A stretch of DNA of 64,000 nucleotides from Ruditapes philippinarum. Lineage: Eukaryota. Both the position numbers and the translations under genes were made by a program. The notes beneath the pieces were generated by a model, which was not told the origin of the DNA, did not search any database, and saw nothing but the letters and a program-made list of their open reading frames with translations. Every line of letters begins with the position of its first letter. The stretch's first letter is position 1. The stretch is from positions 124,001-188,000 of the forward strand of contig NW_026859070.1 of the NCBI RefSeq assembly GCF_026571515.1. The letters run 5' to 3'. Below, piece after piece: positions 1 through 31,600 of the stretch.

Positions 1-134
1 CTTAGAACCATTTCCACATCTTAATTACTAGCTGGCACGTACCCATCGGAATTCGGTCATAGGACCGCAGACTGTGGCGCATCTTCCCGATCCTGTACAT
101 ACTATACCTACATGTATAATTATAACATTCTTCT

Positions 135-1326
135 CAAAGGGGTACGGCTCATTGAATGTTCACAAAATATGTATTTGATGGTAGAAAACATTTATCCTAA
201 GTCAGAAATGAATTCTAAGTCCATTCCCATTATACTATATACTAATATATAGACAAGGGTAACAACTCCCATAAGAAGGTGTCTATGCCCAATCAGGGTT
301 TTTGCCTCGCAGTTTTTTACACGATACAGCATAAATAAAAAGGAATTATGCTATTTGTAGTCGAATGATTTATCTATCGAACCAATGTAAAACTTTTCTT
401 ATATCTCTTATATTTAACGAGTACTGGCCGTCAAAGTAACAAAAAACTGTTCATTTTCGCGAGGTCGACATCGATCGTGGCTACGCAGGAAACACAAAGT
501 TACACGACTGTTGCAATCGTTGGAGATAATATCACAAGCATTTATCATGCTGGGCAATTAAAAATACATAAAAGTAATCAAAATATACCAATAACCTATA
601 ATGACAATATGATATAAACTCACCTGCGGCTTCAAAATATTTCCCCGTTGAAATTTCTATAAAACACCGCCATCTTGACGAATGTAAACAACCGTCATTT
701 GATTGGTCGATTTATTTCCCGAAAATATACCCGTAAATTTCCGAAAAATACCGACCAATCAGATGACGGTTGTTTACATTCGTCAAGATGGCGGTGTTTT
801 ATAGAAATTTCAACGGGGAAATATTTTGAAGCCGCAGGTGAGTTTATATCACATTGTCATTATAGGTTATTGGTATATTTTGATTACTTTTATGTATTTT
901 TAATTGCCCAGCATGATAAATGCTTGTGATATTATCTCCAACGATTGCAACAGTCGTGTAACTTTGTGTTTCCTGCGTAGCCACGATCGATGTCGACCTC
1001 GCGAAAATGAACAGTTTTTTGTTACTTTGACGGCCAGTACTCGTTAAATATAAGAGATATAAGAAAAGTTTTACATTGGTTCGATAGATAAATCATTCGA
1101 CTACAAATAGCATAATTCCTTTTTATTTATGCTGTATCGTGTAAAAAACTGCGAGGCAAAAACCCTGATTGGGCATAGACACCTTCTTATGGGAGTTGTT
1201 ACCCTTGTCTATATATTAGTATATAGTATAATGGGAATGGACTTAGAATTCTTTTCTGACTTAGGATAAATGTTTTCTACCATCAAATACATATTTTGTG
1301 AACATTCAATGAGCCGTACCCCTTTG
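135..1326. mobile_element. Foldback-type non-autonomous DNA transposon (hAT- or P-like), 1192 bp, in an intron of carboxypeptidase 1
   Basis: Arms 135-709 and 752-1326 are near-perfect reverse complements around a 42-bp spacer. Termini are CAAAGGGG...CCCCTTTG. An 8-bp TSD ATTCTTCT lies at 127-134 and 1327-1334. Confidence 0.9.
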
Positions 1327-5373: not shown

Positions 5374-7521
5374 TTTATTATGCCCCACTTCGAAGAAGAG
5401 CGGGTATATTGATTTGCTTATGTCCACACAATATATGTATGACTATAAATTGTATGTATATAGAGGATATTGAATGAGTGTAGTTTAATACTAAATTTAT
5501 TGAACGAGTTGAATAAAATCATATTATTCGAGCCTCTGGCGAGCATAATATTGTTTTATTCAACGAGTTCAATAAATTTAGTATTGAATCTACACGAATA
5601 TAATATTCTATTTACAAGAACGGTAAACTGTTAAAATGAGTAATTTTTCAATGACGCGTTTATAGAGTAACGCTAACATTAGCGCGCTTTAACGCTATGT
5701 TTCTATATAGCGCAAATGACGTCACGTCAAAGTGTTATTACACTAGTGTAATAGCGTTTTTATTAAATAGAGGATATTGAATGAGTGTAAGTTCAATACT
5801 GAATTTATTTCACGAGTTGAATAAAATTATATTATGCGAGCCTCTGGCGAGCATAATATTATTTTATTCAACGAGTGCAATAAATTCAGTATGGAACTTA
5901 CATGAATTTAATATTCTATTTATCACATACCCAAAATAAAGACTAAGAGTCATATTTCATTGACGCGCCTATATTATAGCGCTAACATTTAGCACTCTTT
6001 ACACTATGTTTGTATAACGCTAATGACGTCACGTCAAAATATATGCACGGCCGTGCAATACCATATTTACGGAGTCGCAAAATCGGCACGGGTGTGTGAT
6101 AAATGGCTTTATTACATTCCTGCGCCGCGATTTATGTGATAAACAATTTTATGTTGAATAAAATATATGTTATGTTATGTTAATGTTGGTCCGTCAGTAC
6201 ATCGGTAGACCTCAGTTATTATCTTAAAAACTATTTATCACATAGTCTTCATATTTTACATACTAATTGGTCATAACTATAGTAGGTGAAACATATTGAT
6301 TTCAAAGCTTTGTCAAAGGTCAAGGTCACAGGGACCCTAAATGTCAGAATGGTTTCCGCTCATTATCTTGAAAAAAAAAACTATTTCTCACAAAGTCTTT
6401 ATATTCCCAAATTAATTAGTCATATGCTGTAGATGACTCCTATGATTTTGTGGTCACTAGTTCAAAGGTCAAGGTCACAGGGGCCTTAAATGTGGGAATG
6501 GTTTAAGCTCATTATCTTGAAAACTATCTATCACTAAGTCATTATATTTCACATATTGATTGGTCGTAAGTATAGATTACCCTATCAATTTTGGGGTCTT
6601 TAGGTCAATGGTCAAGGTCACAGGGACCTTAAGTATGTTTGTTTATCCGTCGTTAGACCACATTGTTTCTGCTGATTATCTTAAAAACTATTTATCAAAT
6701 AGTCTTCATATTTCATATATTGATTGGTCAAAACTATTAAATAACCTATATTGATTTTGGTGTTAACTAGCGTAAAGGTCAAAGTTACAGGTGTTTTAAA
6801 TTTCGGAATGGTTTCCGCTCATTATCTTGAAAACTATTTATCAGAAAGTCTTCATATTTCACACATTGATTGGTCATAACTAGAAAATGACCCTTTTTGA
6901 TTTTGGATTCACTAGGTCAAAGGTCAAGGTCACAGTGACTTGAATGTCAAAATGGTTTCCGCACAATATTTCGAAAAGTATTTATGACAAAGTTTTCCTA
7001 TTTCATGTGTTGATTAGTCATATGTGGTAAATGACCCTTATTGATTTTGGGGTCACCAGTTTAAAGGTAACAGGGTCCTTAAATGTCAGGATGGTTTCCG
7101 TTCACTATTTTGAAAACTATTTATCACTAAATCTTTTATATTTCACTTATTGATTGGTTATAATTAGAAGATGACCCCTGTCGATTTTGAGGTCTTTAGG
7201 TCAAAGGTCACAAGGACGTTAAATGTCAGAATGGTTTCTACTCATTATATTCAAAACTACCCGTTATCAAGTTTTTGTGTTTCACATTTTAATTGCTCAT
7301 AACTTGTAGATGGCCCCTATTGATTTTGAGATCACTAGGTCAGAGGACAAGGTCACAATAACCTTGAATGTTCAAAGTAGATGCCCATAGTTACATTTAT
7401 ATGATAAAATATATATTATTCCAGCTACTCTCCATTTTGTTTAACTTACTTATGATAGATTTCATTCAATTTCAGCTAGAAAGGGGGGGGGGGCATATAT
7501 GTCATTATGATATTTCTTGTT
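5374..7521 (+). mobile_element. Helentron-associated (HINE/pearl-CvA-like) element with an internal ~145-bp satellite array, interrupted by a nested repeat at ~5430-6180
   Basis: 5' end TTATGCCCCACTTCGAAGAAGAGCGGGTATAT. About 8 monomers marked by TCAAAGGTCAAGGTCAC at ~6314, 6462, 6607, 6773, 6917, 7061, 7201 and 7339. 3' end GGGGGGCATAT...TTCTTGTT. Confidence 0.7.
5460..6105 (+). repeat. Two tandem copies of a hairpin-containing dispersed repeat; a third, inverted copy is at 22628-22933
   Basis: Units start ATAGAGGATATTGAATGAGTG at ~5460 and ~5768. Each has an internal palindrome centred on GAGCCTCTGGCGAG. Confidence 0.75.
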
Positions 7522-10290
7522 TTATTTTTTTATTTTGTCTTATATTTTATTCATTTTTTAAAATTAAAGTGCCTTAAAGGGTATGTTCTATATCTTATTA
7601 CCATATAAATTACCATATTTATTTCATACAATCATTTTGGAAGTATACTTTTTTAAAATTTAAACAATAATTTTGCATCTGATATATACACTTAAGTTTC
7701 AGAAAACAGAAATATGACACAGTCACTACAAACACATGAAGTATGCAAACACGTCTTAAGCTATAGCCAAAAAAAAATATTTATGTGAGCTCTAGTCAAC
7801 ATTTAACTTAATTATTTGAGCTGCATGTTAATTGTTTTGAGAAATTACACTCTATGCAATGTTGTAATGATGATTTTTGTACTGTCCGTCAAGTATAGCT
7901 AATGTTTTGATAGGTATTATTACGCCTAACAAGAACATAAGTTTCGCCAGATATATTCCACTCGTCGTTGAATTATGTGCCACATGTCTTTAAAAACTGA
8001 CCAGGCTTGGCAATTTCTAATCAGCAAGGCCAGGTACTACTACATGTTAAGAGAGAATTGTAATGATTGTAAGCTTGAGACCAAATCTACACTTGATATA
8101 TTTTTTGCTTCCAATCGCCGACCAATCATTGCCTGGTGATAAAAACATTATTTTCTTTTCGCAGCCGTCTGTTGGCATATGAAAGGTTTCATTATCAAGA
8201 AAATTCTAGAAAACATTAAACAAACTTTACGGCAATCCTCGATGCATTTATCGATATATATATATGTCAGAAGCAAATTCGAAATGTATGATTGCAGACT
8301 TCTAAAGAGATCCACAATTCCTAGACAAATTGGTTGTGTATGAATGACTAGAGCGCCAGATTGTCATATAAAACGTAATTTGAATTTTAAAACCCAATCT
8401 GAATCGCCTACAATACAGTAAATATGTTTTTGAAGTTATCTTTGGGGTTTTTAGAGAATCAAAAAGTGTTCTTGTGAATGCCCATGTGGTGGCTGCTATG
8501 GAGAATTTCTTAGCAAGTTCTTATGAAGACAAACAATCTCAAATGTTAAGACTGAAACGGAATCTATCGTACCAAACAATATCAAAGCAAAACCTAGGAC
8601 TTTTGTAGCTGGGTTTGAAGAATGTATTTATGTTAATAAAAATACGTTAACAATTGATTGCAAAGGCAGTATCGACAGCTTTGTACAATGAAAAACCATT
8701 TGAACAAGGCAAACTTGGTAAGAAAAATTATACAAAGGTAAGACTGCAAATGTTGTATTTCATTATGTGGATATATTGTACATCCAGTAACGCAGGAATG
8801 TGCAAATAACGTAAAAGTAACATCGAATATGTGCAATACTATGGCCAAAACGAGTAACAAGGTAGGTAAACGAACCAAATATTTTATTGTAAACCAAATC
8901 AAAATGTATGGCTGCTATGGCATAACATTTTAACCAAACATTTCGAGAAATAATGTTTACTTTTTAAGCGTAAGATGACCCAAGAAGTTTGGCAAATGTC
9001 TCGGATACACTGAATATATAAAGCCACAATGCAATATATATTGTATAATACAAAGCTATCGATGAAGCACATTAAGTCGCACCCCATACGCTAGCCAGGT
9101 TGTCATTACCAGGAATGATCATGAAAAATAATCACTTCTATGGAGCGATTTTTGATGAGATTTAAAATATAAATTCTCAGCAACCGTATGCTTTAATTCA
9201 TTTCAATCAATTAGATTACAATAAAAATGTTGGTTCATTTTCTTTGCTTGGTGCTCGTATCCACCATATAATTGTACACTTCTGCGAAATTCCTATCTAC
9301 AACGTGTATTTGATAACAGCCAAAAATGGAACAGAGAAAATAGCAATGCTGGTGGGGAGTGTCTGGGCTTTGGTCATTTTTAGAAGTCTGTGGAAAGTAT
9401 TTAAACGACGTATATAGAAGAGTTGCTGCTCATTTGTACGTTTTATAGCTATGGGATAAGATTTATTTTGACGAAACGTATTACTTTGTTATAACTGCAT
9501 TGTTTTGGTAAACACAAAGAAGGGACACAGGAGTCAAAGACATCAAGATATGAATTGCAGACACGACGGACCTTTACAACTTTGGATTGTTGAAACTATT
9601 AATCCATTAAGATGTTAACATATTCGTGTTTCGCACTAATGACCGTCTCGTATCAAGGTAATAATTATACGCAGTACAACTTTTGAGCAGTTTATTTACT
9701 TTATGCATCTCACTCTTGTACACATTCAATTTCACTAGTTTTTTTTAAAACAAACAAGTCGACCATAAGAGATTTTAGAATACGAAATCACACCGTGCTT
9801 TACACATTGTTAGTCGATGTTTTGATCAATTAAACAGAGATTGTATATACACTTAAGTGGAGCAAATAAAATGACGAAACAACAAAGCCAGGATATGTTT
9901 TGCAATTTATTCCTCAAAATTACAATATCAATATTATGCATCAGAACATTTAGATCACATACACAATTATTATGAAATATTAAAATAAATTGTCATGGAA
10001 AAAATCTTAAAATGTTTTTGTGCGTTATATTGAGTTAAATATACCAATAATTTTGCATAATATTATCATTTGCTTTCAAATATATTATTTATTTAGCAAA
10101 TAGAATGTATTTGAACACATCATTTACAATCTGCTTAAATTTTCTTATTTCTCCGTATTCTGCACATACTTTTATATACATGTATAATATATAAAAATTG
10201 GTCCGCACGCATGATAATAATTCTGCAAATAATTATCGTTTGAATATACAATATATCACTTTACCCGCACGTATTTTCTACTACAATATC

Positions 10291-13200
10291 CTAATTATTT
10301 CGAACATATTTTGCAAGCGCTTTAAGAGCCTCCAGCGTTTCTTTCCCGCTCGGTATAATTTGGTCGTCTGGTAGCAAGAAGCCGTACTTTCCGTCATCTC
10401 TCAGCTGTACGTCATAGGCAAATTTCGCCCCCAGTTTTCCGTAAACCCAGTCAACACCAAGGCCACTAGCAACAGCTGATTACAGAATAGAAAATGAATA
10501 ATGTCACGACAAAACCAACATAATGGGTTTGCGACCAGCATGGATCCAGACCAGCCTGCGCATCTGCGCAGTCTGATCAGGATCCATGCTGTTCGCTTAC
10601 AAACCCTATAGCAAGTAGGGAGTCTGATAGCGAACAGCATGGATCCTGATCAGACTGCGCGTAAGCGCAGGCTGGTCTGGATCCATGCTGGTCACAAACC
10701 CATTATGTTGGTTTTGTCATGGCACGGCTCAAATAAATAATGTCAAATGTTGGTTTATAACATTCCGTAAACAAGCGGTGGTACATATTTTTTAGTTTAT
10801 ACAAATTTATTTTAGTTCGATTGAGTTAGAAGCTATCAGCTTATTGAAAAAAACACTCGAATCCGTTCCTAGAACCAACCAGTACTAAGCAATGAATATA
10901 AAGTTTTTTTTGCTCAAGGAACAACGGCTCTTGTCTCTGACAGGGTTTGAACCCACGCGCTGAACTTATTCCAATAGGTATATATGCTTGCGTTTTTTTA
11001 ACTTTTATTTTCATTTATATTACCACTTTTCTCGGCGATAAATCATCACAATCGCAGTTGTATAGCTTTAGTGATACAATTTATGCAAATGTTGTCGCTC
11101 ATATTTATTAGCCGTCTTGCCACTACATCATATGGTAGTGTAATAATTAACAATGTGCAGCCTGACCGAGACTCGACCCGGTACCCTCGGAAGTAGTGAA
11201 CAGTTCAATACTGTGACATATTGTATTTCAATTTTGTTTTAGATAATGAAATCAGCAGTCTTAAAAAATAAATAGATAAATAAAAATTGTATTAGAAATG
11301 TATTATAACTCACAGGCTCGGTTAGCGATTTCTCCATGTGCAAATTTGGTACCATAAACTTGTTCCAATGCTTTGACGGCCACTGTTGACCCTTCATCCT
11401 GAAATAAAGGGAGATAAATCTTGAAAAGAATATTTAAATCTTAAAAGGAATATTTAAAATAAATGCATGTACTTAAAAAACTGAAATATTCTTGATAACG
11501 GACGTACAGGGTGATCCAAAATATCTGTAATTATTGGGTAGGGCAGTATTGAATTTCGTGCATTTATTTCAATACGCATGCAAATCTTTGTTCCGTCCAT
11601 GTACCGTTGATTCTGAGTAGTAAACTAAACCGGATAGTTTCATTGCTTGAAATAAATAAATAAATAAATAATAATAATTATTATAATTATAATAATAAAA
11701 TCAGTAAAAGTGGCAATATGACTATTGTCTGTGTCTAACTCGCATCGAATCCTTGCCGTTTCTCTTCAGATTTTGCGGTAGGGTTTATATCCGTCCAGTT
11801 ACGCAAAAGGTTACTCTAGTTGTTTATTCACACACCCATCAGCGATTTATAGTAACAACTAGCTTTTGATTCCAATAAAACGAAAATTCAATATAAAAGT
11901 AAAGGTTGCTATTATATCAGTTATGTATACAATCATAATTTTATAAGATAGAAACACTGTGATAAGTATCCTTTTTTAGATCAACACCATGCACATTACA
12001 GCGGGTTGTCAGAGAAGACAACTCAAACTATGGAAGAAGTCATGATTAGATCAAGGGAGTTATAAAAAAATTAAATTGGCAGCCATTTTGAGGACAGCTC
12101 GTATTACGTATCAGACGAGGAAATTTTAGCCACATTCAAATGTTACCTGGATTTTGAAATCGACCGGAAGTGTGTTGGTCGATGCCCAGGGTGACAACCA
12201 TTGTTGTGTGTAGCTGTGAAAATTTATGAACCCTTTAAGGTTTTCAATTTTGCTCATATAATCAGCAACTCCTTTGATTTCAACTTCGGAGAAAGCGTTA
12301 GGCCCGCAGTAAATGTTTGAACATGGGTCTTTGCTCGCTCCTGACTCTGTAATAGATAATTGGGTCAAAAAGTGTTTATATGAAACATTGTTAAAGGAAT
12401 TTACATAGGACACACTTGACTTGTTTTTCAATCCGAGAAATTTTCACTGCGTATGCTTTTATACTTCATATTCATGTTGTTACAATTTGAAAATATAATA
12501 TTTTTTAAAAATAAACAGCTTTCCAGTATCATATACCGTTGATCTTAATTAAATGCAAATAGGTTAACGATTTTATTGTGCAGAGCGCAAGAACCGCCTT
12601 CTACAACATTTATTAGATCTATAACATTAGATTATTTCACTTGATTCATTTCCCTTAGTTTAACCCTTTTTTGTCACATTACAAGATATTTCATATCATT
12701 TCACAAAGCATTTTTTTATTATATCAGATCAACGTAAAGGTTTTGCAAAAAATATCTCAAGCTCCATATTTTCGTGACTTACTACACCAGTCCCAGTCCC
12801 AGTTCCTATTGGCGTCAACACCACGACAGGCACCATGCTTTGATCGGGTCTTTCTCCACAAACGTGTCTAGAAAAAAATGTAATATACTTTTTAGTAAAT
12901 CTCTGTAAGTGGAAGTTGCAAAATATTCCGAAAACGACCGGAAGAGACTTTTCTTCTAATATGACATTATGGCACCATATCATAGAGTATTTTTACACCA
13001 TGTATACACGACAGTAAAGCAAAACAGTTGCCAATAGTTAAAACAGATTGTAATGCAGCGCGTACACTCAATATAGTACGCAAATAATGGTAAGTATGAC
13101 AAAAGCAAATTGGCTGGGCAAAGAAACAACATTAAACAACAATATCGTACAGCAATAGCATAGGCCCTTCCCAAAAATGAATATAAGGCTATAGAAAATA

Positions 13201-16200
13201 TTCTTTTAGGGAGATAATAATTACTTTTTACAGCAATAAAATTGGATTGCGTAATTAAATATCAAGCATTTGCAAAAATTTAATAGTTTACTTAATTAAA
13301 AATACATGTATATTATAAGCTCACTATGACTTTCTTTAACCATGCAGGAGCTCGAGTGAAATATGTCATCATTGTACTTTTGGACCGTGGCAGTACATGT
13401 ATATGTCTTTAAACATATACGAAATAGCAAATACCTCATTTTAAGTGAAGTCAGTATTAAATCATTCGTCTTACCGAATCATCAACAAATGTGTACGCGT
13501 ACCCGTCTGGGTTGGTAACCGGAAGTATATACCAATCAAAGCTGTCAACCATTTCCGTCAATTCCATGTCCAGTTTATACAAGTCCAGCATCTAAAATAA
13601 CACAAAATTGTAGAATCTTTTAAAAATTTCACTTTATAGATTAAATAATGTTTAAATTCGTTAGATTTAAAATTATAACATACTTTTCATAAAGATATTT
13701 TCAATTCACTTTATAGTTCAGTATATGTAATAATTTACACATCTTTAAGCTCAGAAACGCGAAGTTAAGAATCCGGTTTCCTGAATGAAACAAGTTTTGC
13801 CGTTGGAACTATCTAAAGGTATCATTTTATTTTAGATATTTTTAAAAGGTCTTTATTGGAAAGGTTTTCATCGCAATATTTAGAATGATATTTCTGTATT
13901 TTCTAAAAATAAAAATGAAGAGCCTTCGAAATAGACATGTTTTGTCTTATGAATGCTCCGTTCAGGGCAAACAGGAAACCAGAAATATTCTACGAATAAA
14001 TTCGATTTTTTTGGACATTGGTTACGGAAGAACACGGAAAATGACGTTTTGCACGATTTTACACAAAGTGTGTTATGCGGATCAGACCTTAATTAAAATG
14101 CAAGGAAGGACAACATTACCTGGCCAGCCATAAAAACAACTGTGGCTGGGGAAATCCATTCTTCCGGGTGAATACCTCCTTCAATCCAGAACGCTGGTCT
14201 GTCCGCATTTTGTGGCTGTGTGCTAATCTAATTACATTAAAAGATAATTTCATATAAAAAATAAATATATAATTTAGTTCCTTGTTAACTGAATAATATA
14301 TAACATATGATTATATGTAACATTGGTAAATATGGTTGTAATTGTATAATGGTCATAACGCCTGCAATACATTATATGTTTGTTACTGTATATTATTTCA
14401 TATGTTTTTATATACATAAATATAATGTACGGTATAGAGTAGGATATCCTCGACCTGCATATACCTATTGACGAGGAAAATAAATTAACATGAAAAAAAA
14501 AAAAAAAAAAAAAAAAAAAACATTAAAAGATTGGTTTTACTCCTAAATTCTTAGACTAAATAATGAACTATACCGAGTTTCATGATAAGAATTTGCGAAT
14601 TAATAGTGGCAGTTTAAAGTATAAACTTAAATGATATATTGCATGTTGACTGTATTTGTTCTCTTTAAAAATGTAATATAATAGAGATTTAAGTCAAGAA
14701 TAATTTTCTTTTATTCATATGCATTTATCCAATTAGTATTAACTATTAATTAATATGGTTAATACAGGGAGATAAATACCTTAATTCCAACAAGTTCTCT
14801 CCCCTCGTAAGACTTTGTTATATTAAACATAGAGGCCTTGTCTTTGTAAACGTTTGTTATATTTTGCATCCAGTCATATATCTGAAAATAAGAGTAACTG
14901 TTAAGTTGGATAATTGACCATTATCAATTTGATTCATCGTCGTCATCACCAATTATCATCATTATTATCATCATAATCATCATCATAATCATCATCACCA
15001 TCACAACAATCATCATCATCAACAACAACATCATCATTATCATCATCACAACAGTCATCATTATTCATCATCATCATCATCATTATCATCGCAACCATCA
15101 TCATCACCGAGCGAAAATTTCGTGTACATCAACTTTAAATAAATTTGAAATAAATGCGATATGATACATAAAGCATCCACTTCTCCCTAGCCCAAGATGA
15201 ATGTTGTATTAAAATCGGGCAACCATTATAAAAATGTACATGATGTGTCATTGTGTACATGAATAAATAAGCATGTAATCAGTGCATTACATGAAGCGGA
15301 AAAAGGAAGAATAGCGCCATCTGGCGTCAAATATGGTTATGGATATAGATATACTTACGTCATCAAGTTGGTGATATTTTGAGTATTCAAACTGGTTTGC
15401 TTTGGGCACTTTGATATTTCTGTAGGCCTTTTGTTCATCAATTATTTGCTGCACATCCTCTATCATGATTTTAACGAACATGTCTTTTTCCAGCAGATAA
15501 TTTGTGACGTCATCATATTCAAATGGTGACAGACGAATATCCACGGAATTGTTAACGCTTGATGGTGCACGCCATACATCCAAGTGCTGCAAATAGTGTT
15601 TTAAGTTAGAAACTTAAAAGGAATATTTGACAAAAACATGCATCAGAGTTAAGGGTATTGCTAAATAAACTCTGCAAATCATGCAAACTGCACGAGAAAT
15701 TTCGAGTATTTCGAACTCTACCGAGCTTTATAACATTTATTTTATTATAAGTTTAGAAAAAAAGAAGAAAAAAAGTGAAAAGATTGCAGTATATCAAATA
15801 AATTGTATAAGTTAAATTAACGTTTACAATGGTTACTCGGAATGAAGTCTCTTACAGTCTTTATTATCAGCCTGTGCCGCTCTTGACCAATTTAATTTCG
15901 TTTATAATTTCTAGTGAACACTAACAGGCATGCAAAACAATAGTTACTAAATTGTCAAATATTCTGGTTTACTTTTGGGAAAAACACTTAAAAATTTACC
16001 CGCTCTTCAAATAGGAGATTCTGCAGATGTTTCACTTCCTGTTCGGTATTTGGGGTTACTTTTATCACTTTATGTCTGAAATTAAAACATATTCAATTAA
16101 CTGTTATTTTCATTTAAAGTTTTATTAAACAGTTTACAGAAAATATCACCGACTATTCAAAACGTTTGTGTCGCTTCAAATACTTAGTAACTCGTGTTCA

Positions 16201-16632
16201 TGATTTATGATGTTGTTCAACGAAAAAATAATCATATTCATGTCGACTCTGTGCCACCGCAGTTTAATGCAAACTTTAATGATTATAAAGAAAACAATTA
16301 GAAGAAAATTAAGTGAGAATTTAATATTACGCAATTTAGGAGTATAAGCAGCAAAAACAGGAATGAAATTAAAATCCAAAGGTAGGTAACTGTACGTTGC
16401 AAAAACGCATTATCTGCCCTTTTAAACCGAGCGCCATGCAATGAAAGCAAATGGAACCGATTTCAAATGAGGTTAAACGCAAGCATATTATTTATTTATT
16501 TATTAAATAACTTTTGCTCATTTAAGACTTAAAACGATAATATAGTTTTAAAATTCAACCTTACCCCGTCCATGGTCCATGACCCAACGTTCCAAGAGGC
16601 ACAAATATCGCTAGTGTAACTAGAAGTAACAT
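10291..16632 (-). CDS. M14A procarboxypeptidase-like, copy 2; 417 aa, 10 exons; predicted catalytically dead (E270Q, Y248S, R71E)
   Basis: Exons 16565-16632, 16000-16075, 15359-15586, 14780-14881, 14120-14227, 13475-13591, 12783-12867, 12147-12346, 11314-11398 and 10291-10475 total 1254 nt with an open frame. Motifs [36 protein letters not shown] and YDVQLRD..YGFLLP. Confidence 0.93.
10502..10730. mobile_element. Palindromic MITE (Sola-like GAG..CTC family), left end truncated
   Basis: Same sequence family as 23640-23874 and 42704-42938 (GCATGGATCCAGACCAGCCTGCGCATC.GCGCAGTCTGATCAGG). Confidence 0.85.
14935..15107. repeat. Imperfect (ATC)n microsatellite in an intron
   Basis: Visible CAT/ATC triplet run. 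Confidence 0.9.
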
Positions 16633-19080: not shown

Positions 19081-19149
19081 GATACATGTATATAACTTAC
19101 ATGTATATATTACCCCTTCAGGTTAAGAAGAAACAATCCGAAATCTAAA

Positions 19150-21378
19150 ATGTGGGGGACATCTCACAACAGAAGCAATCCATGGCGGCTCTTCCGTCCA
19201 TCGACTGCTACCGAAAATCACGAACCATCACGAGATCGAAATAACAAGACGATTGAGTATTCACGTGCACGCAGTTCAGCAGACACAGTTTTGTCAAAGA
19301 GACAGGAAACAAACCATGTCTTTTACGAGCAATATGACGACAATGCAAATGCAAACATTATAGATAAATTTAACGTTTATGGCTGGAAAAAGAAATTTAC
19401 ATGTGACAAACAAACCCAGACTGATCCTGCAACTGAAACGACAACGAACCAGAAAATTGCTGCTCGAAAGTCGTTTGCGAATAAAGTCATATATTCTAAA
19501 TCGTGCGACAGTTTGCTGAAAAAAACTCCGACACGGCTTTATTTTAGTAGAAGCTTTGATAATTCAAAGAAAATTAGAAGATGTGAAATTGATGAGCAGC
19601 AGACGACAAAGTTTTGTGACAATCGTGAAAGGGTTCTTGAAAAACTGAAAAAGCCACACGATGATTTATCATCAAATACGGCTGTTTTTCCAGAAGGTCT
19701 TAGCATGACCGATGGTTTTTATGGCGGCAATTGTTACAAAAACACCCAACACGAAGACGAATTCATGTCGCCAAAAGAAAAATGCGAGAAAAAACCAAGC
19801 GAAGTCCCGAATCGCATCGAACAAAGAAAAAGTAAGCAATATCTAGGCGACGATATCTGTTCTGACTTAGAATCAAATCTTAGAAATATGTCATGTCAGG
19901 ATAAAACAGAAGACACTTTTATAAACGAATGGAGTCCATTTCATCAGAACCGTGAAAGAGACAACGAGTTTAATGATTATCGTCAATCTGATGATGTCAG
20001 TCTGGCTTCAGAGCGAAGCTGCTATTCAATATCTTCCGAGGAACAAGAAAACGAGATTGAGTATGAGATTGTCGACTGGTGTGAATATAATGAGGGTTAC
20101 AAAGAAACAGAAGATTGTTCCAAAAAGAGGTCTGGCGGAATCAGTTCCCAATTAAACACACCCGTACTGGACCTGAGTGCCCTAGACGGCTATCATACGG
20201 CCCCAAACTCGCCGCATGCTCCCATTGAATCCGAAGAATATCCTCCGCTATATCAAGAGAAAGAGATTATCTTGGATTTCACAGAAAATAATGGTGCATC
20301 AAATAATAAGTGTGTAAAAGAAATCAAAGATTTTGGGAATCGCTGTGAATCTGACGGTGCATCATCCCATTACAAAAAGGAAGATAATGCTTTCCAAAAA
20401 CAGACTTTGTGTTGTAAATGCGGAAAAACTATGGCATCCAATGAGGAGCAGTTTCAGAGTGGTACGGTTGAAAATAGAAATAAGACAAATAATCGTAACA
20501 ATCAATATGAGCTGGTTGGACAATACCAAAGGTCAACTGAGGTTGACTTTAGAAATCTTACGTTAGAGACGCCTCCATTTATAGCAGTGAACAGTCTACA
20601 TTACGAAGCTGACCCAGAGACCGGGAAAGCAAAAGTCGTTGGCCGAGGAAGTTTTGGACAGGTGTATAAGGCAAGATTTTCAGATCCTAGGTTTAACCAT
20701 CTTCCAATAGTTATTAAAGAATTTGATGAAGAGTTCACGAATTCTAAAGAAATCATCGAGGAAGCAAAACGTTTGAATTACCTACAAGATACGAGATATG
20801 TTCCTATTTGCTACGGCCTTCTATGCTTCGGCTCCCCAGTCCAGCCGAAATATGGGATTGTCCAGGAATACGTAGGCACCGGTTTGACCTTGGAACAAAT
20901 GCTTTGGGATCAGTATGAACTCCCGTTAGAATACTGGTTCCGGATTGCAATACAGTGTTGTGAAGGGCTTGCTAGATTCCACGATAAAGGCATTCTTTTG
21001 AATGATATTAAAACCAATAACATTTTACTGGAGTTTGAAGATCATTCTGTTCGAATACGATATATCGATTTTGGACTGGCTACAGACATGCGCGGGAAAC
21101 GGTATAAGAACAGTCGCTCATTGGAGGATTTTGTTTACCTTGCACCGGAAGTGAGAAAATACGGAAAAATCACTACCGTGGCGTCTGATATCTATTCACT
21201 AGGTTTTATTTTGGAACAGATAAAGAAATATACGGGTGTGAACGAGTTAGTGGTGATAGCCCGTCTATGTATGGAAAGGGATCCAGAAAAGCGACTTCCG
21301 CCATGGAAAGCAGCAAAACTGTTGAAAGATCACATGATCAAGCTTGGATTTGACGTCATGTTTTCATGGGACGTTTAA
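19150..21378 (+). CDS. Divergent Ser/Thr-type protein kinase, 742 aa, CDS in one exon, long disordered N-terminus
   Basis: C-terminal domain with GRGSFGQV, VIKE, alphaC Glu (IIEEA), LLNDIKTNN, DFG, YLAPE, SDIYSLG and DPEKR. A splice acceptor (CCCCTTCAG) ends at 19121, just upstream. Confidence 0.92.
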   Translation: MWGTSHNRSNPWRLFRPSTATENHEPSRDRNNKTIEYSRARSSADTVLSKRQETNHVFYEQYDDNANANIIDKFNVYGWKKKFTCDKQTQTDPATETTTNQKIAARKSFANKVIYSKSCDSLLKKTPTRLYFSRSFDNSKKIRRCEIDEQQTTKFCDNRERVLEKLKKPHDDLSSNTAVFPEGLSMTDGFYGGNCYKNTQHEDEFMSPKEKCEKKPSEVPNRIEQRKSKQYLGDDICSDLESNLRNMSCQDKTEDTFINEWSPFHQNRERDNEFNDYRQSDDVSLASERSCYSISSEEQENEIEYEIVDWCEYNEGYKETEDCSKKRSGGISSQLNTPVLDLSALDGYHTAPNSPHAPIESEEYPPLYQEKEIILDFTENNGASNNKCVKEIKDFGNRCESDGASSHYKKEDNAFQKQTLCCKCGKTMASNEEQFQSGTVENRNKTNNRNNQYELVGQYQRSTEVDFRNLTLETPPFIAVNSLHYEADPETGKAKVVGRGSFGQVYKARFSDPRFNHLPIVIKEFDEEFTNSKEIIEEAKRLNYLQDTRYVPICYGLLCFGSPVQPKYGIVQEYVGTGLTLEQMLWDQYELPLEYWFRIAIQCCEGLARFHDKGILLNDIKTNNILLEFEDHSVRIRYIDFGLATDMRGKRYKNSRSLEDFVYLAPEVRKYGKITTVASDIYSLGFILEQIKKYTGVNELVVIARLCMERDPEKRLPPWKAAKLLKDHMIKLGFDVMFSWDV

Positions 21379-23239: not shown

Positions 23240-26200
23240 ATGGTAAGTATGGTTTTCTTAGTTTTTAGTTAGGTCTTGTTTGGCAACATAATAAGGCACG
23301 AAGTAAGTGTAAGCACATGGTCTGGCGTTATAGAAAAATAACAACATCAACAACAACAACTAACTAAAGTTAAAAACAACAACGTATAGATATTGTTTCA
23401 GATAAATTTTTTGAAATATCGTTTTCATATTGAAAATACAACATGCGATAACCAGTCTACATGCTTTCAGGTTTATAATAAGCTTTTCGTATATATAAAA
23501 CGCGAAACTATGTTTATTCTCATTTTTTATTTACATTGCATTTCTTTTTTTTAACTTCTATGTAATATCTCTGAGTTGGATCCACCAAACTTTCCTGGAT
23601 AACTTACCAGTATTTCCTGCCGCAAGTCCAACATTATTTGAGCCGTGTCATGACAAAACCAACATAGTCGGTTTGCGACCAGCATGGATCCAAACCAGCC
23701 TGCGCATCCGCGCAGTCTGATCAGGATCCATGCTGTTCGCTATCAGTTTCTCTACTTGTAATAGGGTTTGTAAGCGAACAGCATGGATCCTGATCAGACT
23801 GCGCGGATGCGCAGGCTGGTCTGGATCCATGCTGGTCGCAAACGCATTACGTTGGTTTTGTCATGACGCGGCTCATTTCTAAATTAACCGTAAGTGACTA
23901 TAAGGATGCTACACCGGCGCTGCCGGTACAAACCGGAATATCTAGCTCGAGGGTAACTGTTAACGGCGGTAACGAGGCTCTGCCGGCCATTTAATTAAGT
24001 CAATGTACGCGATCAATTGAACGGAACAATTACGTCTTACCAGAGGATCGGACCAGCGACCCTTGTGTTTCAAATCCGATGATCTACCTATTGAGCTAAG
24101 TGGGCGGAGTCAAACTGTATGTAACTGGTCACTAGCATTATCTAGAACCTCAATGACCTCGTCTTTTCACTATGTTTTATTTTTCACTTTTTTTTCAAAG
24201 TTGTGGAGAAGTTGGTTCCTTATTTCCGGTATATGCGCAGTGCTACTTTCGTACCGGATGTATGTTGTCCTTCATCGTGAAATTCCATCGGAAATTGAAA
24301 ATCCCCACATTGTGCGATGGCTTGATGAAGCTGGTAGAGTAGGAAACACTCTGGTTTGTAAACTAGATACTTCTTTTTATTAACGGGTGACATATTTTTT
24401 ACACTGACCTTCATCCATATTCAACCAATAAAATGACATTTAATGAAAAAGGGTGCATATTGGCATAAATAAATGACAACACACCACGAATGAAATATAT
24501 ATGAATGATGTTAGTGATTGTGATATACATAATTCGATATAGCATACCTACATATCGTTCTGGAAAAAAAATATTATTATTCATCATTTAAATGCCCATA
24601 CTAAATCACTTAGAACTCTTATCATCTTTATTTTAATTGTTCAAGAAATATTCTGTATGAATAACAAAATGATACATTTCTGCCGATTTAAGCATTTTTT
24701 AGATACGGCGCCGATTGTAGACCAATTCCATTTAAGATACGTAACTCTATATCAAAATACAACTTTTTAATTTGACAAGTGTATAAAACAGGAAACCTTT
24801 AAAAGGAAAATGTTTTAATATTAAATGATGATCAGGTTATTTTGATTTTCTAGACTTGGATATGTCACCAACTTGGTGTTGAACACGCTACATGGCCAGC
24901 AAAGATGGTTGTGAATTTTGGGGCACGCCTGCTTTTTAATGGTTTTGGTAAACCGGTTACAAATATAACGGTAATGTATAATGATTAAAGTGTACTATTT
25001 TCTTGGGTAGTTTATGGCCATAACTTCGGATCACAAGCCTTCCGTATTTTTGCTTCGAATATCAATGTGAAAGTTGAGTATTATTGTTCAGAAGTAATAC
25101 AGAACCTTGGGTGGTCTACGCAGAATCAATCTTGAAACAATATAGGACAGCTCGGATTATCCTTCAACGATTCATATGACTAAAACAGTGTCTTCAAAAC
25201 GAGTTTAAACTAAATCACTAGATATACTAAAATGTAATTTGATTCGAAAGAAATCCTTTACCTTAATTTTGTAAGTGATTAAAACAATGGCTTGTTGTTC
25301 GGTTGAGAAAATTTATTATTATGCAAATTTCGTAAATGTAGCACCACTTCTATTATTAAAAAGTTCTTTTTTTAAGTTTTTCATTAAAGCTATTTTGTGC
25401 TACAGTTCGAGACTAAATATATTTATTTGTTTGTTTGCAGGTTCGTTACACAAGCATTGACTCAGTGCCGGTAACAATATTTTTACCCGATACACTAACG
25501 ACTAAAACCAAATATCCGACCATGGTCTACTTCCATGGCGGGGGATGGACCTGGTTCTCTGTAGGTAGGTGTAGGATTCATTTCTGTTTCCGGTGTATAA
25601 ATATACATTTTTTCTCTACAGTGTAATGACCAAGTGAATTAAAACCAACCATTGTTATATTAAGCCTATATCACGCTAAATACAATGTATCTTAAATGAA
25701 CTTGTTCATCTTTAACATGGAAAAATCCATTCATCATTTTAGAGTAAATGCAAAAAAGTACTTTACTGACTGAATAGTAAACATTCTTTAATTGATTTGT
25801 CCATCCATGGCCAAAACCATTCATCATTAAAGGCAAAAATAAGTATGTATTGACAATGCAGACAACGATCAGACGGTAGCGATCTTGGACTACACTGGTC
25901 CTGTCGCCGACAGCAGAAAAATGGCTAGCAATAGACAGAAAATGAAATTGCAGAAATGTTCGTCGATGTATTTCTTGTCGCTATGGTATATTGACAAAAC
26001 AAATAAATCACTGATCACTAATTAGTGTTCTTTTCTGTTTTATTATCATTTTAATTATTTTACAGATGTTTATGCGGGTTACCTTGCACATCTCGCCAAG
26101 AAAACCAACGTCCAAATAGTAGCTGTCGAGTATGTTTTTGTTACATTTATTTTTGTGAATTTCATGCAATATTGACTATGTTCAAGCTCTTAAATATTTG

Positions 26201-28027
26201 TTCAATCTTGGCCTGCACAAAGCACTTTGTTATTTGTCAAATAAGCAAGATTTCATTTCATCACTGTTCATAGTAAAAATGAACTAAAATTCGCTGTTTA
26301 CATATATGCAAGACATAAGACAATAACTCTTATTAATACACTTGTTACTATATATATAGTAACAAAATTGCCTATGATTTCAACTGATTATGAGTGTCAC
26401 GTGACCTATTATGAGTTTGCGGCCCGGGGCTGAGAACTAGTTATCAGCCCGCAGAAAATGTGAACGTGCACAAACTGAAACAATGACGTCATATTTTACG
26501 TCATCAAACAGTTAACTGTAAAAGTGAAAGAAGATTGTCAGCACGAATCGCTTTATTTCTATTATGAGAGCTTAAGCGTCATTAGTACAAACAGATTTTT
26601 GTTACTATTGAAATTTGAAGAAATAATACGACAAATTCATTCCGAAAAAAAAATGAAAATAAAACTTGCTTCTAGATTCTACTGCTTTGAACACACAAAC
26701 AGTAAACGTCTCTGTACAGTACAGAACAGTAGAAGGGTAGACAAGAATTTCAACGAAAGAACTTCAAAGTATTTGTTGGTGTTTTTTTTTGGTTTTTTAA
26801 AAAAAATGCTACTATTAGATCTACCAAGTGTATTAAAGACATTAATACACGTCAGAGTAGGGCCGGAAGGTGATAATCGGCCCTGAATGAATAATGGCCC
26901 TCGGGCTAAAGCCCTCGGTCCATTATTCATTTTGCGGGCCGATTATCACCTTCCGGCCCTCTCCTGCCGTGTATTAACCTCTTAATGTTCCACGATGCGA
27001 TGTTTATGAATATACAAACAGTTTTTGTTCAAATACATGCCTTTGACTACATGTCATTAACTTTGTAAATTGTATATTGTATCAACTTCCTTCAGTGAGT
27101 AAGCCTTTCCTTTTTGTTGGCAAATGAATAGATGTACATATAATTTGTTTTCAAACTAGATTTGATCTAGCGTTTTCATGATATTTTAAATGATATATAT
27201 ATATACACACAATAAAATCATTTTGTTCAACTTTAAACGTCATTTATAGTTACAGAAAAGCTCCTCAGTTTCCATTTCCGGCCGCCTACGATGACTGCCT
27301 AACTGTAACCAATGGTCTTCTGAAACGTACAGCCGATTTCAAAATAAAGGCGGGAAAACTTGTCGTCGCGGGAGATGGTTCCGGCGGAAATTTGGCAGCC
27401 GCCGTGGCTCATGCTACTAAAGGGAAAATACTCATGCAAATTCTTATCAACCCGGCCTTGCAAATCTTTGACTTCGAGACGCCGTCTTATCAAGACAACG
27501 TGAACACACTTCCGGGGTTGTCGTCTGCTTTTAGGAATTCCTATCACTGGTTGTCTTATGCTGGAATTTCCAAAGATTTTTTACAAATGGCGGTTCAGAA
27601 TAACCATATTTCACAAAACAATTTGAATTCTGCCTTTAGTTCTTATCTTGATAGCAAAAAATACTTGCCTAGCTACCATGGTGTAACAAAAAGACAAACC
27701 AAACGAAATAGAAAATCTGCTAATATAATAGTAACGTCTGCTTTTAACGGTATAATTGCTGATCCTCGGATAGCACCAATGATGGCCGTTCATATCAAAG
27801 ATGTTCCGAATGTGTATATGATTACGTCACAATATGACGTATATAGGGACGAGGCCATCATGTATACACACAGGCTGTTTGACGCCGGTGTGAAGGTTAA
27901 ACTTGAACACTACCATGAGGCTTTTCACGGATTTTTCATGTTTTGTGGATATGGGCCAATCGAATTTGAAGTGAGCAAACAGGCGTTAAATACACTTGCT
28001 GATTTCTTGAACAATATGGCACAGTAA
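23240..28027 (+). CDS. AADAC/NCEH1-like (HSL-family alpha/beta hydrolase), ~412 aa, N-terminal membrane anchor; nucleophile elbow GDGSG
   Basis: Exons 23240-23242 (ATG|GTAAGT, the least certain exon), 24201-24353, 24854-24970, 25441-25564 (YFHGGGW), 26066-26129 and 27250-28027 (DYRKAPQFPFPAAYDDC, AGDGSGGNLA, YDVYRDE, FHGF). Total 1239 nt, open frame. Confidence 0.9.
23640..23874. mobile_element. Palindromic MITE, Sola-like, 235 bp
   Basis: GAGCCG...CGGCTC termini, 4-bp TSD ATTT, nearly fully self-complementary. Confidence 0.9.
26330..26984. mobile_element. Non-autonomous hairpin-containing element (possibly Crypton-like) in an esterase intron
   Basis: ~135-bp palindrome at 26842-26977, and alternating TTAATACAC / GTGTATTAA motifs at ~26333, 26828, 26842 and 26969. 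Confidence 0.5.
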
Positions 28028-28630: not shown

Positions 28631-31600
28631 CTAATGAGATGAAAATTCGTTTTTCTGAGCTAATCTTGCCGTGACCAGTATTTGGTCTCCATCTAAAAAC
28701 GCGTGATTCAAGAGATCACGTGCCGTTCCTCTGTTGCGTGCATCAACTACGAGACACGTGTCTATAAAAGATTTCAGTCCATCTGATAGTTTGTTATATT
28801 TCTTTATAGTTGGTCTACCATTTCTTTTTATAAGTTTCATAGCACGTGTTCCTTCCTCATGTATATATGGTGGTTCTCCGTCAATCATTTCTATAAGTGT
28901 TATACCATAGCTCCATATATCTATTTTATAATCATACGGTCTCCTGAAAAAAAAGAATGGTTACAGTGTTAGCAATATGGCAAATGTTTGAAAATTCTAT
29001 AACAAAAATAAATGCTTAGATTTACACAGAATTTTATTTAACAATACTTATACATTAGACATATATTTAACCTGTCGCATAAACACGTAGTTTTGGCTTG
29101 CCAAACGATGAATTAGATTCTAAAAATATCTTTTTATTACTTTTCTGATACTGTTATACTTATATAGTTCATACATTAGCATAAACTTAAAAGAATTTAA
29201 AGGAAAATGTTTGAAAAGTTTGCCCAAAAGTATTTTAAAAATATTTTATCAATGTCATGTAGTTACATGCCAAGTGAATTTATTTAAGTGTAAGAAAGAA
29301 ATGGAAGACTGTATATAAAATGTATTTCATACATACCTTGCCACCACTTCCGGTGCCATAAAGCACGGTGAGCCAACCAGTTCGTTCTTCTTGGCATTTT
29401 TATCATGAATGTAGCTGGTACCAAAATCCGTTATCTTTACTCTCCCATATATATCAACTAACACATTGCTGCTTTTGATATCTCTATGAACTATGTTCTC
29501 TTTATGGAGATAGTCCAAACCTTTCACACATTGACTAGATATGAAACAAATATGTCCTTCTTCTAACGCTACATTTCTTATAATCTTCTTTAGCGAACTA
29601 CCATTCACGTATTCCATGACAAGCCAGAATTTCTTTACAGCTTCAACATAAATCGCATCTAGAGCGGTGACAACATTATCATGGTAGATCTTCTTCATTA
29701 TGGTCACCTCGTTTGCCAACACATTAAATGGCTGTTTTTTAACCTCTAATATCTTGATGGCAACCATACAACCGTTCTGTTTCGTTTTGGCTAGAATCAC
29801 GTGACCAAAAGTTCTGCAAATATAGTATAATGTGAAAAGCTGAATACATTGCGAATTAAGAAGATTTGTTTTAAAGATTTTTGGACACGGGTATCAAATA
29901 TGAATGTACAATTGTCGTGGTAGCTATAACTCAGACTTTAGATATGCGCGTTAAACCATGACACCCATTGATGTTGATACATTATAAAGTTTTGACATTG
30001 ATACATTGGTTTATAACAACAGTAGGATTTTGATAGTAATATACTGTATGATAACAACAGATAAATATATGACCTCGACATTGATGTCACACCAATAGAC
30101 AAATAATAAGTTTATAATATTGATACATCACAACATCAGTAAAGTGTACATGTATGTCCTTGACATTGATCCGTCCAACTAACAAACTATTTGTCCTTCA
30201 CATTGAAGCATCACATTAACAGACAAACTACATACTGATAGATCAAGCAAACGTCCTTGACATTGGTACGTCTCCCCAACATACAAAAAATAGTTAAAAA
30301 CAAACATACTTACACTCATAGATAAATTGTGAACATACATGTAGATATAAAGGTGATACTTACCCTGAGTCTATTAACTTTATTGGAGAATATTTTCTTT
30401 TGGGATCATCGCCACTTGACAGATTTCCTAACAAAGTTTAACAAATAATGCAACATTACAGACGAGAAAAATAATGTGACATAGAGAACGAGGAAACATA
30501 TTCACTAACGAACAACATGGTATAAAGTCATAATGTTTGGGAATATTTGATTGATCATTTAGAGCTTTAATGTAAAATGTTTAGCTTATATTGATCACAA
30601 TAATTACGAGCATTGTGTTCGTTTATCAAGCCTTGTATTTTATATGCACCAAAATGATTAAAATGTATTTTTAACCCATGAACCAATAAACTTGTCCATT
30701 ATTTAGGACAAAAGCATTTACTTGTACACGGTGCCTATACCAATACCAAAAAACTAAAAGTACTAAAACCAATACAAAAGACGGTCCAGGTTTTATATTT
30801 TTTCATAACTTTTTAAATATATTATTATTATATACTTATGAATGAACTATTGATGAAATATAATGCGTATTTTCATTTTTCGTATTTTCACAGTGAAATT
30901 TTTTTTTCACTGCTGTTAAACATATTTTCCGTATTTTCACTGGTGTCTTGCTGGACTACTTTCTTCTAATTTCTGCCAGTACACAATGTTTAAGGGAAGG
31001 TTTTTTCTATTAATACAGGATTTATTTTCATCGAGTGGTATGAAAATAAATATTTCGTGAGTGGCGGTAGCCCCTGAAATATGATAATTTTCATACCACA
31101 AGAATATCCTCTTTTTATCTTGTATGGAATAAAATGTAGAGCCTGCTCATTCTAGTGTGGAACCATGAAAAGAATGATTCTTGATCTTCTGATTGTTTGA
31201 GCACTCGCGGTTTTACTTTATGTAAAATACTGTTTTTTTTTACCCTTAAACTTTCTATGAATGTTTTATTTACTAGAAAGGGTGGGTTCAACACTTTACC
31301 CGATTCTATTAAAACAATGGAAGAAAATAAAATTTGAAGCGTCTATTGTACACCATGCATATCATAAAATGTTATGTGGTGTAGGCACAGTGATTCATTA
31401 TTTTTACGGCAAATTTCAAATATGTGCTGACTGGATAGCCAAATTTGCTTAGGAAAATTTACATTCTGAGAAAATGTTTCGTTTACTTACTTAACATTTT
31501 GTGATACAACATGTCGACAGCTCTCGGCTGAACACGTGACTTTGTCTTCGACACATCCTGCAACAAAAAGATAATGTTCAATTAAATGTTTTGAAATCGT

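What the first reader, a model, noticed from the sequence alone, without database searches (positions are those of the whole stretch)
10291..16632. Intact secreted pseudo-carboxypeptidase next to an apparently canonical paralog
Seen: a complete 417-aa ORF with signal peptide and propeptide. The zinc ligands (H69, E72, H196) and the carboxylate-binding R127/N144/R145 are retained. However, the general base Glu270 is Gln (YDVQLRD; codon 10405-10407), Tyr248 is Ser and Arg71 is Glu. Copy 2 reads HPEEW where copy 1 reads HAREW; this CGT>GAA change alters all three bases in an otherwise near-identical exon. Established: E270 is essential in M14A enzymes, and E270Q-type mutants are essentially inactive. 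Inference: a neofunctionalised zinc-retaining binder of peptide C-termini, or a decoy for carboxypeptidase inhibitors.
Basis: partly seen in the sequence, partly recalled or inferred. Interest (0 to 1): 0.75.

Follow-up and report, generated by a model that had tools for sequence, protein, structure and literature searches.

The report
Clam carboxypeptidase copy that lost catalysis
Next to a normal carboxypeptidase gene, the Manila clam has an intact, spliced duplicate that has lost the catalytic glutamate and half of its substrate groove but kept its zinc- and carboxylate-binding residues, so it is likely a non-cutting 'dead enzyme' that would grip peptide ends instead of digesting them, a new case of a known kind.

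Summary
A 10-exon gene (16632-10291, - strand) encodes 417 aa, identical to Ruditapes philippinarum XP_060601871.1. It has Q270, S248 and E71 and keeps H69/E72/H196 and R127/N144/R145. The tandem copy 1 (XP_060601834.1) is canonical, E270 included.

Spliced contigs occur in 2 of 4 runs laid, and one contig reads CAG at codon 270.

The duplication is old (dS about 0.5, dN 0.09). Copy-2-specific changes hit 11 of 21 cleft sites against 31 of 284 others, and 51 of 52 conserved non-cleft positions are kept. So this is a constrained pseudoenzyme, not an error.

Two limits apply. The cleft changes are as many as neutral drift after loss of catalysis would give (7-11 expected), so neofunctionalisation is not shown. 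The inhibitor-decoy idea is disfavoured: 5 of 6 top inhibitor hotspots are changed.

Best reading (0.5): a zinc-holding binder of C-terminal carboxylates with a reshaped pocket. M14 pseudopeptidases are known; this residue combination was not found in print.

The parts
16565..16632 (-). Copy 2 exon 1: ATG, hydrophobic leader (likely signal peptide)
   Evidence: hydropathy
16000..16075 (-). Copy 2 exon 2 (propeptide)
15359..15586 (-). Copy 2 exon 3 (propeptide, basic linker, start of mature domain)
14780..14881 (-). Copy 2 exon 4
   Evidence: exon 4/5 joint inferred from the loose end at 14229 in run X1
14120..14227 (-). Copy 2 exon 5: H69, A70P, R71E (14164-14162), E72
   Evidence: joint 13591/14120 in X1
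13475..13591 (-). Copy 2 exon 6
   Evidence: joints in X1 and X3
12783..12867 (-). Copy 2 exon 7: R124, R127, N144, R145 kept
12147..12346 (-). Copy 2 exon 8: H196 kept; D163N, T164I, S199T, M203L, G207A
   Evidence: X1 allele keeps the derived residues 199-208
11314..11398 (-). Copy 2 exon 9: I246R, I247A, first base of Y248S
   Evidence: joint 11397/12146 in X1 and X3
10291..10475 (-). Copy 2 exon 10: S253L, S254G, A255V, G268D (10413-10411), E270Q (10407-10405), TAG
   Evidence: X3 contig 10211-10427 with 0 differences; P0157, P0159
10502..10724 (.). High-copy inverted-repeat (MITE-like) insertion at the 3' end of intron 9; a similar stretch precedes exon 10 in allele P0157
1548..4404 (-). 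Copy 1, exons 1-6 (4404-4322, 3942-3867, 3652-3425, 3052-2951, 2515-2408, 1664-1548) of the canonical paralog XP_060601834.1; the rest lies beyond the window start

Best explanation
Copy 2 is an intact, spliced tandem duplicate of a clam A/B-type procarboxypeptidase that is predicted to be secreted and catalytically dead, and it likely works as a zinc-holding binder that grips the free C-terminal carboxylate of a peptide without cutting it. Shown: gene structure, residues, transcripts in 2 of 4 runs, an old duplication, constraint on the fold, and D268+Q270 in three sequences. From established knowledge: without Glu270 the zinc-bound water is not deprotonated and the leaving amine is not protonated, while R127/N144/R145 can still hold a carboxylate. 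Inferred: the propeptide is removed at the basic linker as in the parent. The S1' pocket is refilled (G207A, S253L, A255V, G268D, partly offset by I247A), so the last residue bound would be small or carry an amine, not aromatic. R71E reverses the charge at S2. The ligand therefore differs from the parent's substrates and from canonical inhibitors. The ligand itself and the tissue are unknown.
For: ORF and splice sites are intact although dS to copy 1 is 0.505 and introns do not align; P(intact) is about 2e-11 if neutral since the duplication. dN/dS over exons 2-6 is 0.091/0.505. Only 1 of 52 strongly conserved non-cleft positions changed (Y238F) against 5.7-7.3 expected, P 0.002-0.011. All four Cys are kept. 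The model has pLDDT 94.5, and TM 0.90-0.91 to procarboxypeptidases A. Four spliced joints are seen in X1 (depth 325-407) and three in X3 (depth 6-11). All six zinc and carboxylate residues are kept: P 0.005-0.07 if they were free to drift. D268+Q270 are kept in allele P0157 (57/60 identical) and in P0159 (44/54 identical). Glu->Gln allows peptide binding without hydrolysis (PMC5683605). Pseudopeptidase CPXM2 binds Arg-Sepharose specifically (PMC11266112).
Against: The number of cleft changes (11 of 21) is what neutral drift would give (6.8-11.4), and keeping R127/N144/R145 alone is weak evidence (P 0.08-0.29). The zinc ligands could be kept for stability. Y248 and R71, which help hold peptides (PMC12346392, PMC10687636), are lost, so binding may be weak. 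Copy-2 alleles differ at 5 of 113 residues against 2 of 343 for copy 1 (Fisher P 0.012, small and mixed samples), which fits relaxed constraint. Two 2026 raw-read runs show almost no exon reads (X21, X23). In vertebrate CPO duplicates, predicted pseudoenzymes mostly showed weak purifying selection (PMC9925722 section 8). No binding or activity was measured.
Confidence: 0.5

Rival explanations
1. Dead enzyme with a drifting cleft. Catalysis was lost once, the groove has since drifted, and selection keeps only the fold, either for a role on another surface (scaffold, partner of the active paralog) or merely because a misfolded secreted product is harmful. The gene may be on a slow path to loss.
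For: 11 of 21 cleft changes against 6.8-11.4 expected under neutrality. Non-cleft changes are also raised: 31 on the copy-2 branch against 14 on copy 1, and 42 vs 14 overall, P 2e-4. More amino-acid differences between alleles. If constraint ended recently (0.02 changes per site), an intact ORF has P 0.14.
Against: All six zinc and carboxylate residues are kept (P 0.005-0.07). D268 and Q270 both persist in P0159, which differs at 10 of 54 positions. Deep spliced contigs in X1.
Confidence: 0.3
2. Rewired enzyme. Asp268, gained two residues before the lost Glu270, would act as a relocated general acid/base (or the protein keeps another hydrolase activity such as esterase), and the other cleft changes make it resistant to inhibitors or change its substrate.
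For: D268 is absent from 145 homologs and, among 151 exon-10 hits, occurs only in P0157 and P0159, both with Q270. Zinc ligands and R127/N144/R145 are kept, and inhibitor hotspots are changed.
Against: Position 268 lines the S1' pocket (PMC9925722), not the water site, and Asp is shorter than Glu (own knowledge). Y248 is also lost. A CPD double E270Q mutant had no detectable activity (PMC5683605).
Confidence: 0.1
3. Decoy that soaks up dietary or parasite carboxypeptidase inhibitors and so protects the active paralog.
For: It shares the fold and zinc site with the paralog, and both copies are transcribed in run X1. R127, R145, Y198 and F279 are kept. Without E270 it would not turn an inhibitor over.
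Against: 5 of 6 grade A/B hotspots for proteinaceous inhibitors are changed (R71E, Y248S, T164I, D163N, I247A; PMC13388685, a simulation study). R71 and Y248 make the PCI hydrogen bonds (PMC10687636). 7 of 12 anabaenopeptin contacts differ (PMC5015106). A decoy should keep the paralog's surface.
Confidence: 0.07
4. Assembly error, or an unexpressed pseudogene.
For: X21 and X23 show next to no exon reads. P0001 is the only member of its 90% cluster.
Against: X3 contig 10211-10427 has 0 differences across codon 270, and spliced joints appear in X1 and X3. Independent sequences P0157 and P0159 carry Q270. ORF intact, dN/dS 0.18.
Confidence: 0.03

Closest known systems
M14A (A/B) procarboxypeptidases, e.g. 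human proCPA2 (1aye), porcine proCPA (1pca), human proCPA4 (2boa); paralog XP_060601834.1
   Same: Propeptide plus catalytic domain; TM 0.90-0.91 and 36-37% identity; zinc triad and R127/N144/R145; 78% identity to the paralog.
   Different: E270Q, Y248S, R71E, G268D and a refilled S1' pocket. Neither copy has the Asp255 of true CPB (A in copy 1, V in copy 2), so the label 'carboxypeptidase B-like' is loose for both.
Ecm14, fungal M14 pseudopeptidase with a prodomain (PMC7706225, PMC11266112)
   Same: Prodomain-bearing M14 protein that keeps H69/E72/H196 and R127 and lacks E270.
   Different: Ecm14 is defined by N144D and E270K and has H145, so its carboxylate clamp is altered. The clam protein keeps N144/R145 and has Q270. 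It arose independently, nested among bivalve enzymes.
CPXM1, CPXM2, AEBP1, CPD domain III (M14B pseudopeptidases; PMC11266112 table, PMC5683605)
   Same: Non-catalytic M14 domains; CPXM2 binds Arg-Sepharose, and peptide binding is proposed for CPD-III.
   Different: All lack R145, three lack a zinc ligand, and position 270 is Tyr or Glu. They belong to another subfamily.
Predicted pseudoenzymes among duplicated vertebrate CPO/CPA/CPB genes (PMC9925722) and MEROPS M14.UNA non-peptidase homologues (PMC4826915 table)
   Same: Tandem A/B duplicates with substituted active-site residues (6 of 76 CPO, 1 of 51 other A/B duplicates).
   Different: Those mostly showed weak selection, and their residues are in a supplement that I did not read. 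Here the fold is clearly constrained and D268+Q270 is shared with a diverged relative.
Engineered E270Q-type mutants of CPD (PMC5683605)
   Same: Same Glu->Gln change, stated to allow binding without hydrolysis.
   Different: Natural, and accompanied by ten further cleft changes.

Membership tests
M14A carboxypeptidase (sequence/fold family) | Peptidase_M14 domain preceded by Propep_M14 activation peptide | tested here: met
   Pfam E 8.6e-88 and 8.7e-18; TM 0.90-0.91 to proCPA
M14A carboxypeptidase (sequence/fold family) | Zinc ligands H69, E72, H196 present | tested here: met
   H178, E181, H305; the motif reads HPEE instead of HA/SRE
M14A carboxypeptidase (sequence/fold family) | N-terminal signal peptide | tested here: inconclusive
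   hydrophobic leader by hydropathy only; no predictor available
Active M14A enzyme | General acid/base Glu270 | tested here: not met
   Gln, CAG 10407-10405
Active M14A enzyme | R127, N144, R145 | tested here: met
Active M14A enzyme | Substrate-positioning R71 and Y248 | tested here: not met
   E180 and S357
Carboxypeptidase B specificity class | Acidic residue at 255 | tested here: not met
   V364 in copy 2, Ala in copy 1; criterion from PMC9925722
M14 pseudoenzyme (criteria of PMC9925722) | Catalytic residue substituted, other conserved residues retained, ORF intact | tested here: met
   58 of 63 positions conserved at 90% or more are kept; 4 of the 5 lost are cleft residues
M14 pseudoenzyme (criteria of PMC9925722) | No measurable peptidase activity | not testable with these tools
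   needs recombinant protein
M14 pseudoenzyme (criteria of PMC9925722) | Transcribed and spliced | tested here: met
   spliced contigs in 2 of 4 runs; protein itself not detected
Ecm14 family | N144D and E270K | tested here: not met
   N253 and Q380; definition in PMC7706225
Inhibitor decoy | Inhibitor contact surface of the active enzyme conserved | tested here: not met
   5 of 6 grade A/B hotspots and 7 of 12 anabaenopeptin contacts changed

The most novel reading that the evidence does not exclude
The acid has moved, not vanished. Asp268, found here only together with Gln270 and kept in a diverged relative, serves as a relocated general base, and the other cleft changes remove the contacts that inhibitors use. 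Clams would then have an inhibitor-resistant M14A hydrolase with a rewired catalytic site, and 'E270 is indispensable' would have a natural exception.
Probability: 0.1. Interest if true: 0.8.

Novelty: new variant of a known kind. Interest (0 to 1): 0.42.

Why it matters
M14 pseudopeptidases are known, but the five reviewed ones (AEBP1, CPXM1, CPXM2, CPD-III, Ecm14) have all lost R145 (PMC11266112 table). This one keeps the whole zinc triad and carboxylate clamp and carries the same Glu->Gln change that biochemists engineer to get binding without cutting.

It sits beside a 78%-identical active-type paralog. The pair is therefore a convenient system for asking whether a dead peptidase becomes a peptide receptor, an altered enzyme or a drifting relic. 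It also corrects a database label: XP_060601871.1 is annotated 'carboxypeptidase B-like'.

The limit is breadth. It is lineage-restricted, natural Q270 recurs in three other unnamed M14 sequences (P0195, P0218, P0264), and no function is shown.

Tried and rejected
- No whole genome is held for this window, so further paralogs outside the window could only be judged from annotated proteins. Three R. philippinarum proteins besides P0001 turned up only as P0002 and P0122 (copy 1 and its near-identical twin). tblastn found no third copy in the window.
- The metagenome scan gave 9 loci of 40-72% identity, none of them copy 1 or copy 2. So there is no DNA for copy-1 exons 7-10, and dN/dS covers exons 2-6 only.
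- Recent gene conversion in exons 2-6 was not supported: longest identical run 43 nt, permutation P 0.13. In exon 10, both clam copies share A373 and A376 where P0159 and Mercenaria have V and S. This suggests a local conversion or parallel change and was not resolved.
- X3 holds a second exon-10 contig (10334-10475) with 7 differences whose positions were not displayed. It may be an allele or copy 1, so it was not used. X1 shows no laid contig at 10280-10387, and the bin holding codon 270 is swamped by the repeat, so X1 says nothing on codon 270. No displayed piece spans the R71E codon. Only 40 of 154 difference rows were shown.
- Contig depths were not used to rank the two copies. 4 of 24 listed runs were laid.
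- In one search, three weak secondary alignments (P0019, P0191, P0194; E 2-7) were dropped before counting Q270. The P value printed used a guessed count and was replaced.
- D268-to-zinc distance could not be measured. No complex was predicted, because the report claims no protein partner.
- Earlier findings of the scan: none, by words or by sequence.
- Literature: no paper on this gene in the listings; two searches returned 0 papers. The library lacks most subscription journals, so work on insect midgut inactive carboxypeptidases may be missed.
Full report
OBSERVATION. The - strand of 16632-10291 holds ten exons with GT-AG introns that splice to a 417-aa open frame. The product equals P0001, XP_060601871.1 of Ruditapes philippinarum, and has an M14 activation peptide and an M14 catalytic domain. 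By bovine CPA numbering (motif offsets recalled, consistent with the alignments to human CPA4 and CPA1) it keeps H69, E72, H196, R127, N144 and R145, and has E at 71, S at 248 and Q at 270 (CAG, 10407-10405). Six exons of a second copy lie at 4404-1548. Its full product is P0122 (XP_060601834.1, same contig), with R71, Y248 and E270. Exon 5 is 86% identical between the copies, ordinary for this pair (76-89%), so the three-base difference at codon 71 is less singular than stated.

NOT AN ERROR. Of 24 runs listed, four were laid on 10100-14400. X1 shows four of the five introns in that stretch spliced out at contig depth 325-407, and X3 shows three at depth 6-11. The exon 9/10 joint is not among the displayed rows. 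An X3 contig covers 10211-10427, codon 270 included, with no difference. The X1 exon-8 contig differs at five bases: two synonymous changes, E296K and M292L; it keeps the derived residues at 199-208. Loose ends in X1 match copy 1, so both copies are transcribed there. The raw-read runs X21 and X23 have next to no exon reads (4 and 6 in 100 of each run read), so expression is restricted by tissue, stage or animal; which is unknown.

INDEPENDENT SEQUENCES. A search for short proteins with residues 296-400 returned three. P0157 is 57/60 identical to exon 10 and is preceded by sequence like the same intronic repeat; I read it as an allele. It keeps L253, V255, D268 and Q270. P0158 equals copy-1 exon 10. 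P0159 is 44/54 identical to copy 2, 43/54 to copy 1 and 41/54 to Mercenaria, yet has D268 and Q270. It is most simply an ortholog from another clam (inference; its source is unnamed and a third paralog is not excluded).

HOW RARE. Among 145 other homologs of 200 aa or more, E270 is in 143, R71 in all 143 ungapped rows, and D268 in none. Among 151 proteins mapped at 270 after the profile search, 11 have K (Ecm14-like, by the criterion of PMC7706225) and five have Q. Three of these five are distant (P0195, P0218, P0264). D268 occurs only in P0157 and P0159. The single Mercenaria hit and the Mya and Dreissena hits have E270. The tree joins copy 1 and copy 2 (92/92, below the starred level) with Mercenaria as sister (95/93); the copy-2 branch is 0.22 against 0.087.

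SELECTION. Over exons 2-6, dS is 0.505 and dN 0.091, and introns do not align. A frame neutral since the duplication would be intact with P about 2e-11; with only recent release (0.02 changes per site), P is 0.14. With Mercenaria as outgroup, the mature domain has 42 copy-2-specific changes against 14 for copy 1 (P 2e-4), and the propeptide 7 against 7. Copy-2 changes hit 11 of 21 cleft positions and 31 of 284 others (P 1e-5). The 21-site list follows PMC9925722 and PMC10687636; 250 and 254 are recalled, and 122 and 142 are left out. Sixteen further bivalve homologs and Mercenaria differ from copy 1 at 0-6 cleft sites. Of 52 strongly conserved non-cleft positions only Y238F changed, against 5.7-7.3 expected. 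AlphaFold gives pLDDT 94.5, and the model matches procarboxypeptidases A at TM 0.90-0.91. The fold is thus under selection and the cleft has changed.

WHAT THIS DOES NOT SHOW. If the cleft had been free to drift along the copy-2 branch, 6.8-11.4 of the 21 sites would have changed. Eleven is within that range, so positive selection is not demonstrated. What argues for a used cleft is what stayed: all three zinc ligands and R127/N144/R145 (joint P 0.005-0.07; the clamp alone 0.08-0.29), and D268+Q270 in P0159. Against it, copy-2 alleles differ at 5 of 113 residues and copy-1 sequences at 2 of 343 (P 0.012, pooled from unlike sources).

MECHANISM. E270 activates the water and protonates the leaving amine (PMC12346392, passages). 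Glu->Gln permits binding but not hydrolysis, and the double mutant of CPD had no activity (PMC5683605, passages). Positions 203, 207, 243, 247, 253, 255 and 268 shape the S1' pocket (PMC9925722, passages and section 8). Copy 2 has L, A, I, A, L, V, D there, where copy 1 has M, G, I, I, S, A, G. I infer a narrower pocket with a buried acid and an S2 site of reversed charge. The likeliest working is therefore a secreted, zinc-holding protein that clamps a C-terminal carboxylate with a small or amine-bearing last residue and does not cut (0.5). Cell-wall stem peptides of ingested bacteria are one candidate ligand; this is speculation. Rivals: a drifting cleft with only the fold kept (0.3), a rewired enzyme using D268 (0.1), an inhibitor decoy (0.07), an artefact (0.03).

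THE DECOY IDEA fares badly. R71, R127 and Y248 (grade A) and T164, E163 and I/L247 (grade B) are the shared inhibitor hotspots in a simulation study (PMC13388685, passages), and copy 2 keeps only R127. R71 and Y248 make the PCI hydrogen bonds (PMC10687636, passages). Seven of twelve anabaenopeptin contact positions (PMC5015106, passages) differ from copy 1. These contacts are also substrate contacts, so the result does not by itself show inhibitor escape.

COMPARISON. It is an M14A family member by domain, fold and zinc triad, fails the test for an active enzyme, and meets the sequence criteria for a pseudoenzyme in PMC9925722. It is not Ecm14 (N144D, E270K; PMC7706225, passages) and not one of the M14B pseudopeptidases. 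All five in the review table lack R145 (PMC11266112, passages). Predicted A/B pseudoenzymes after duplication are on record in vertebrates (6 of 76 CPO, 1 of 51 others; the residues are in a supplement that I did not read) and as M14.UNA in a fly transcriptome (PMC4826915, passages). PMC13651249 and PMC12927552 (passages) added little. No paper on this gene or on a mollusc M14 pseudoenzyme appeared (search listings only).

VERDICT. Real, expressed and constrained; very likely a pseudo-carboxypeptidase; a new variant of a known kind whose function is untested. Interest 0.42.

Noticed in passing
window 134-718 and 743-1327: 585-nt inverted repeat, 99% complementary with a 24-nt spacer, in intron 6 of copy 1: a young foldback element or an assembly artefact.
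   Followed up: no
window 6218-7362: Degenerate tandem array of about 145-nt units (5-6 copies) between the two carboxypeptidase genes.
   Followed up: no
window 5482-5922: Nested direct and inverted repeats of 72-139 nt upstream of copy 1.
   Followed up: no
window 10502-10724 and about 23550-23860: Very high-copy MITE-like element in intron 9, with a similar copy near 23.6-23.8 kb.
   Followed up: partly
window 19096-21378 (+): Long single open frame (760 aa stop to stop) with a C-terminal protein kinase domain behind a long low-complexity region.
   Followed up: partly
window about 25400-28027 (+): Alpha/beta hydrolase (Abhydrolase_3) gene, last exon 27194-28027.
   Followed up: partly
window 28631-29893 (-) and 44946-45578 (-): Two near-identical protein kinase exons about 15.6 kb apart (PAK/STE20-like by my recall): another tandem duplication.
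   Followed up: no
window 32388-33323 (-): 311-aa frame resembling the C-terminal part of a non-LTR retroelement protein (recalled likeness, not tested).
   Followed up: no
P0019 (Mizuhopecten) and P0015 (Dreissena): Other bivalve paralogs with cleft changes but E270 kept: P0019 has D at 248 and 6 cleft differences from copy 1; P0015 has C at 279. Cleft remodelling recurs in this bivalve family.
   Followed up: no
P0195, P0218, P0264: Distant unnamed M14 proteins with Gln at 270 but no Asp268: natural E270Q has arisen more than once.
   Followed up: no
window 61348-61676: 329-base N gap flanked by a short-unit repeat.
   Followed up: no
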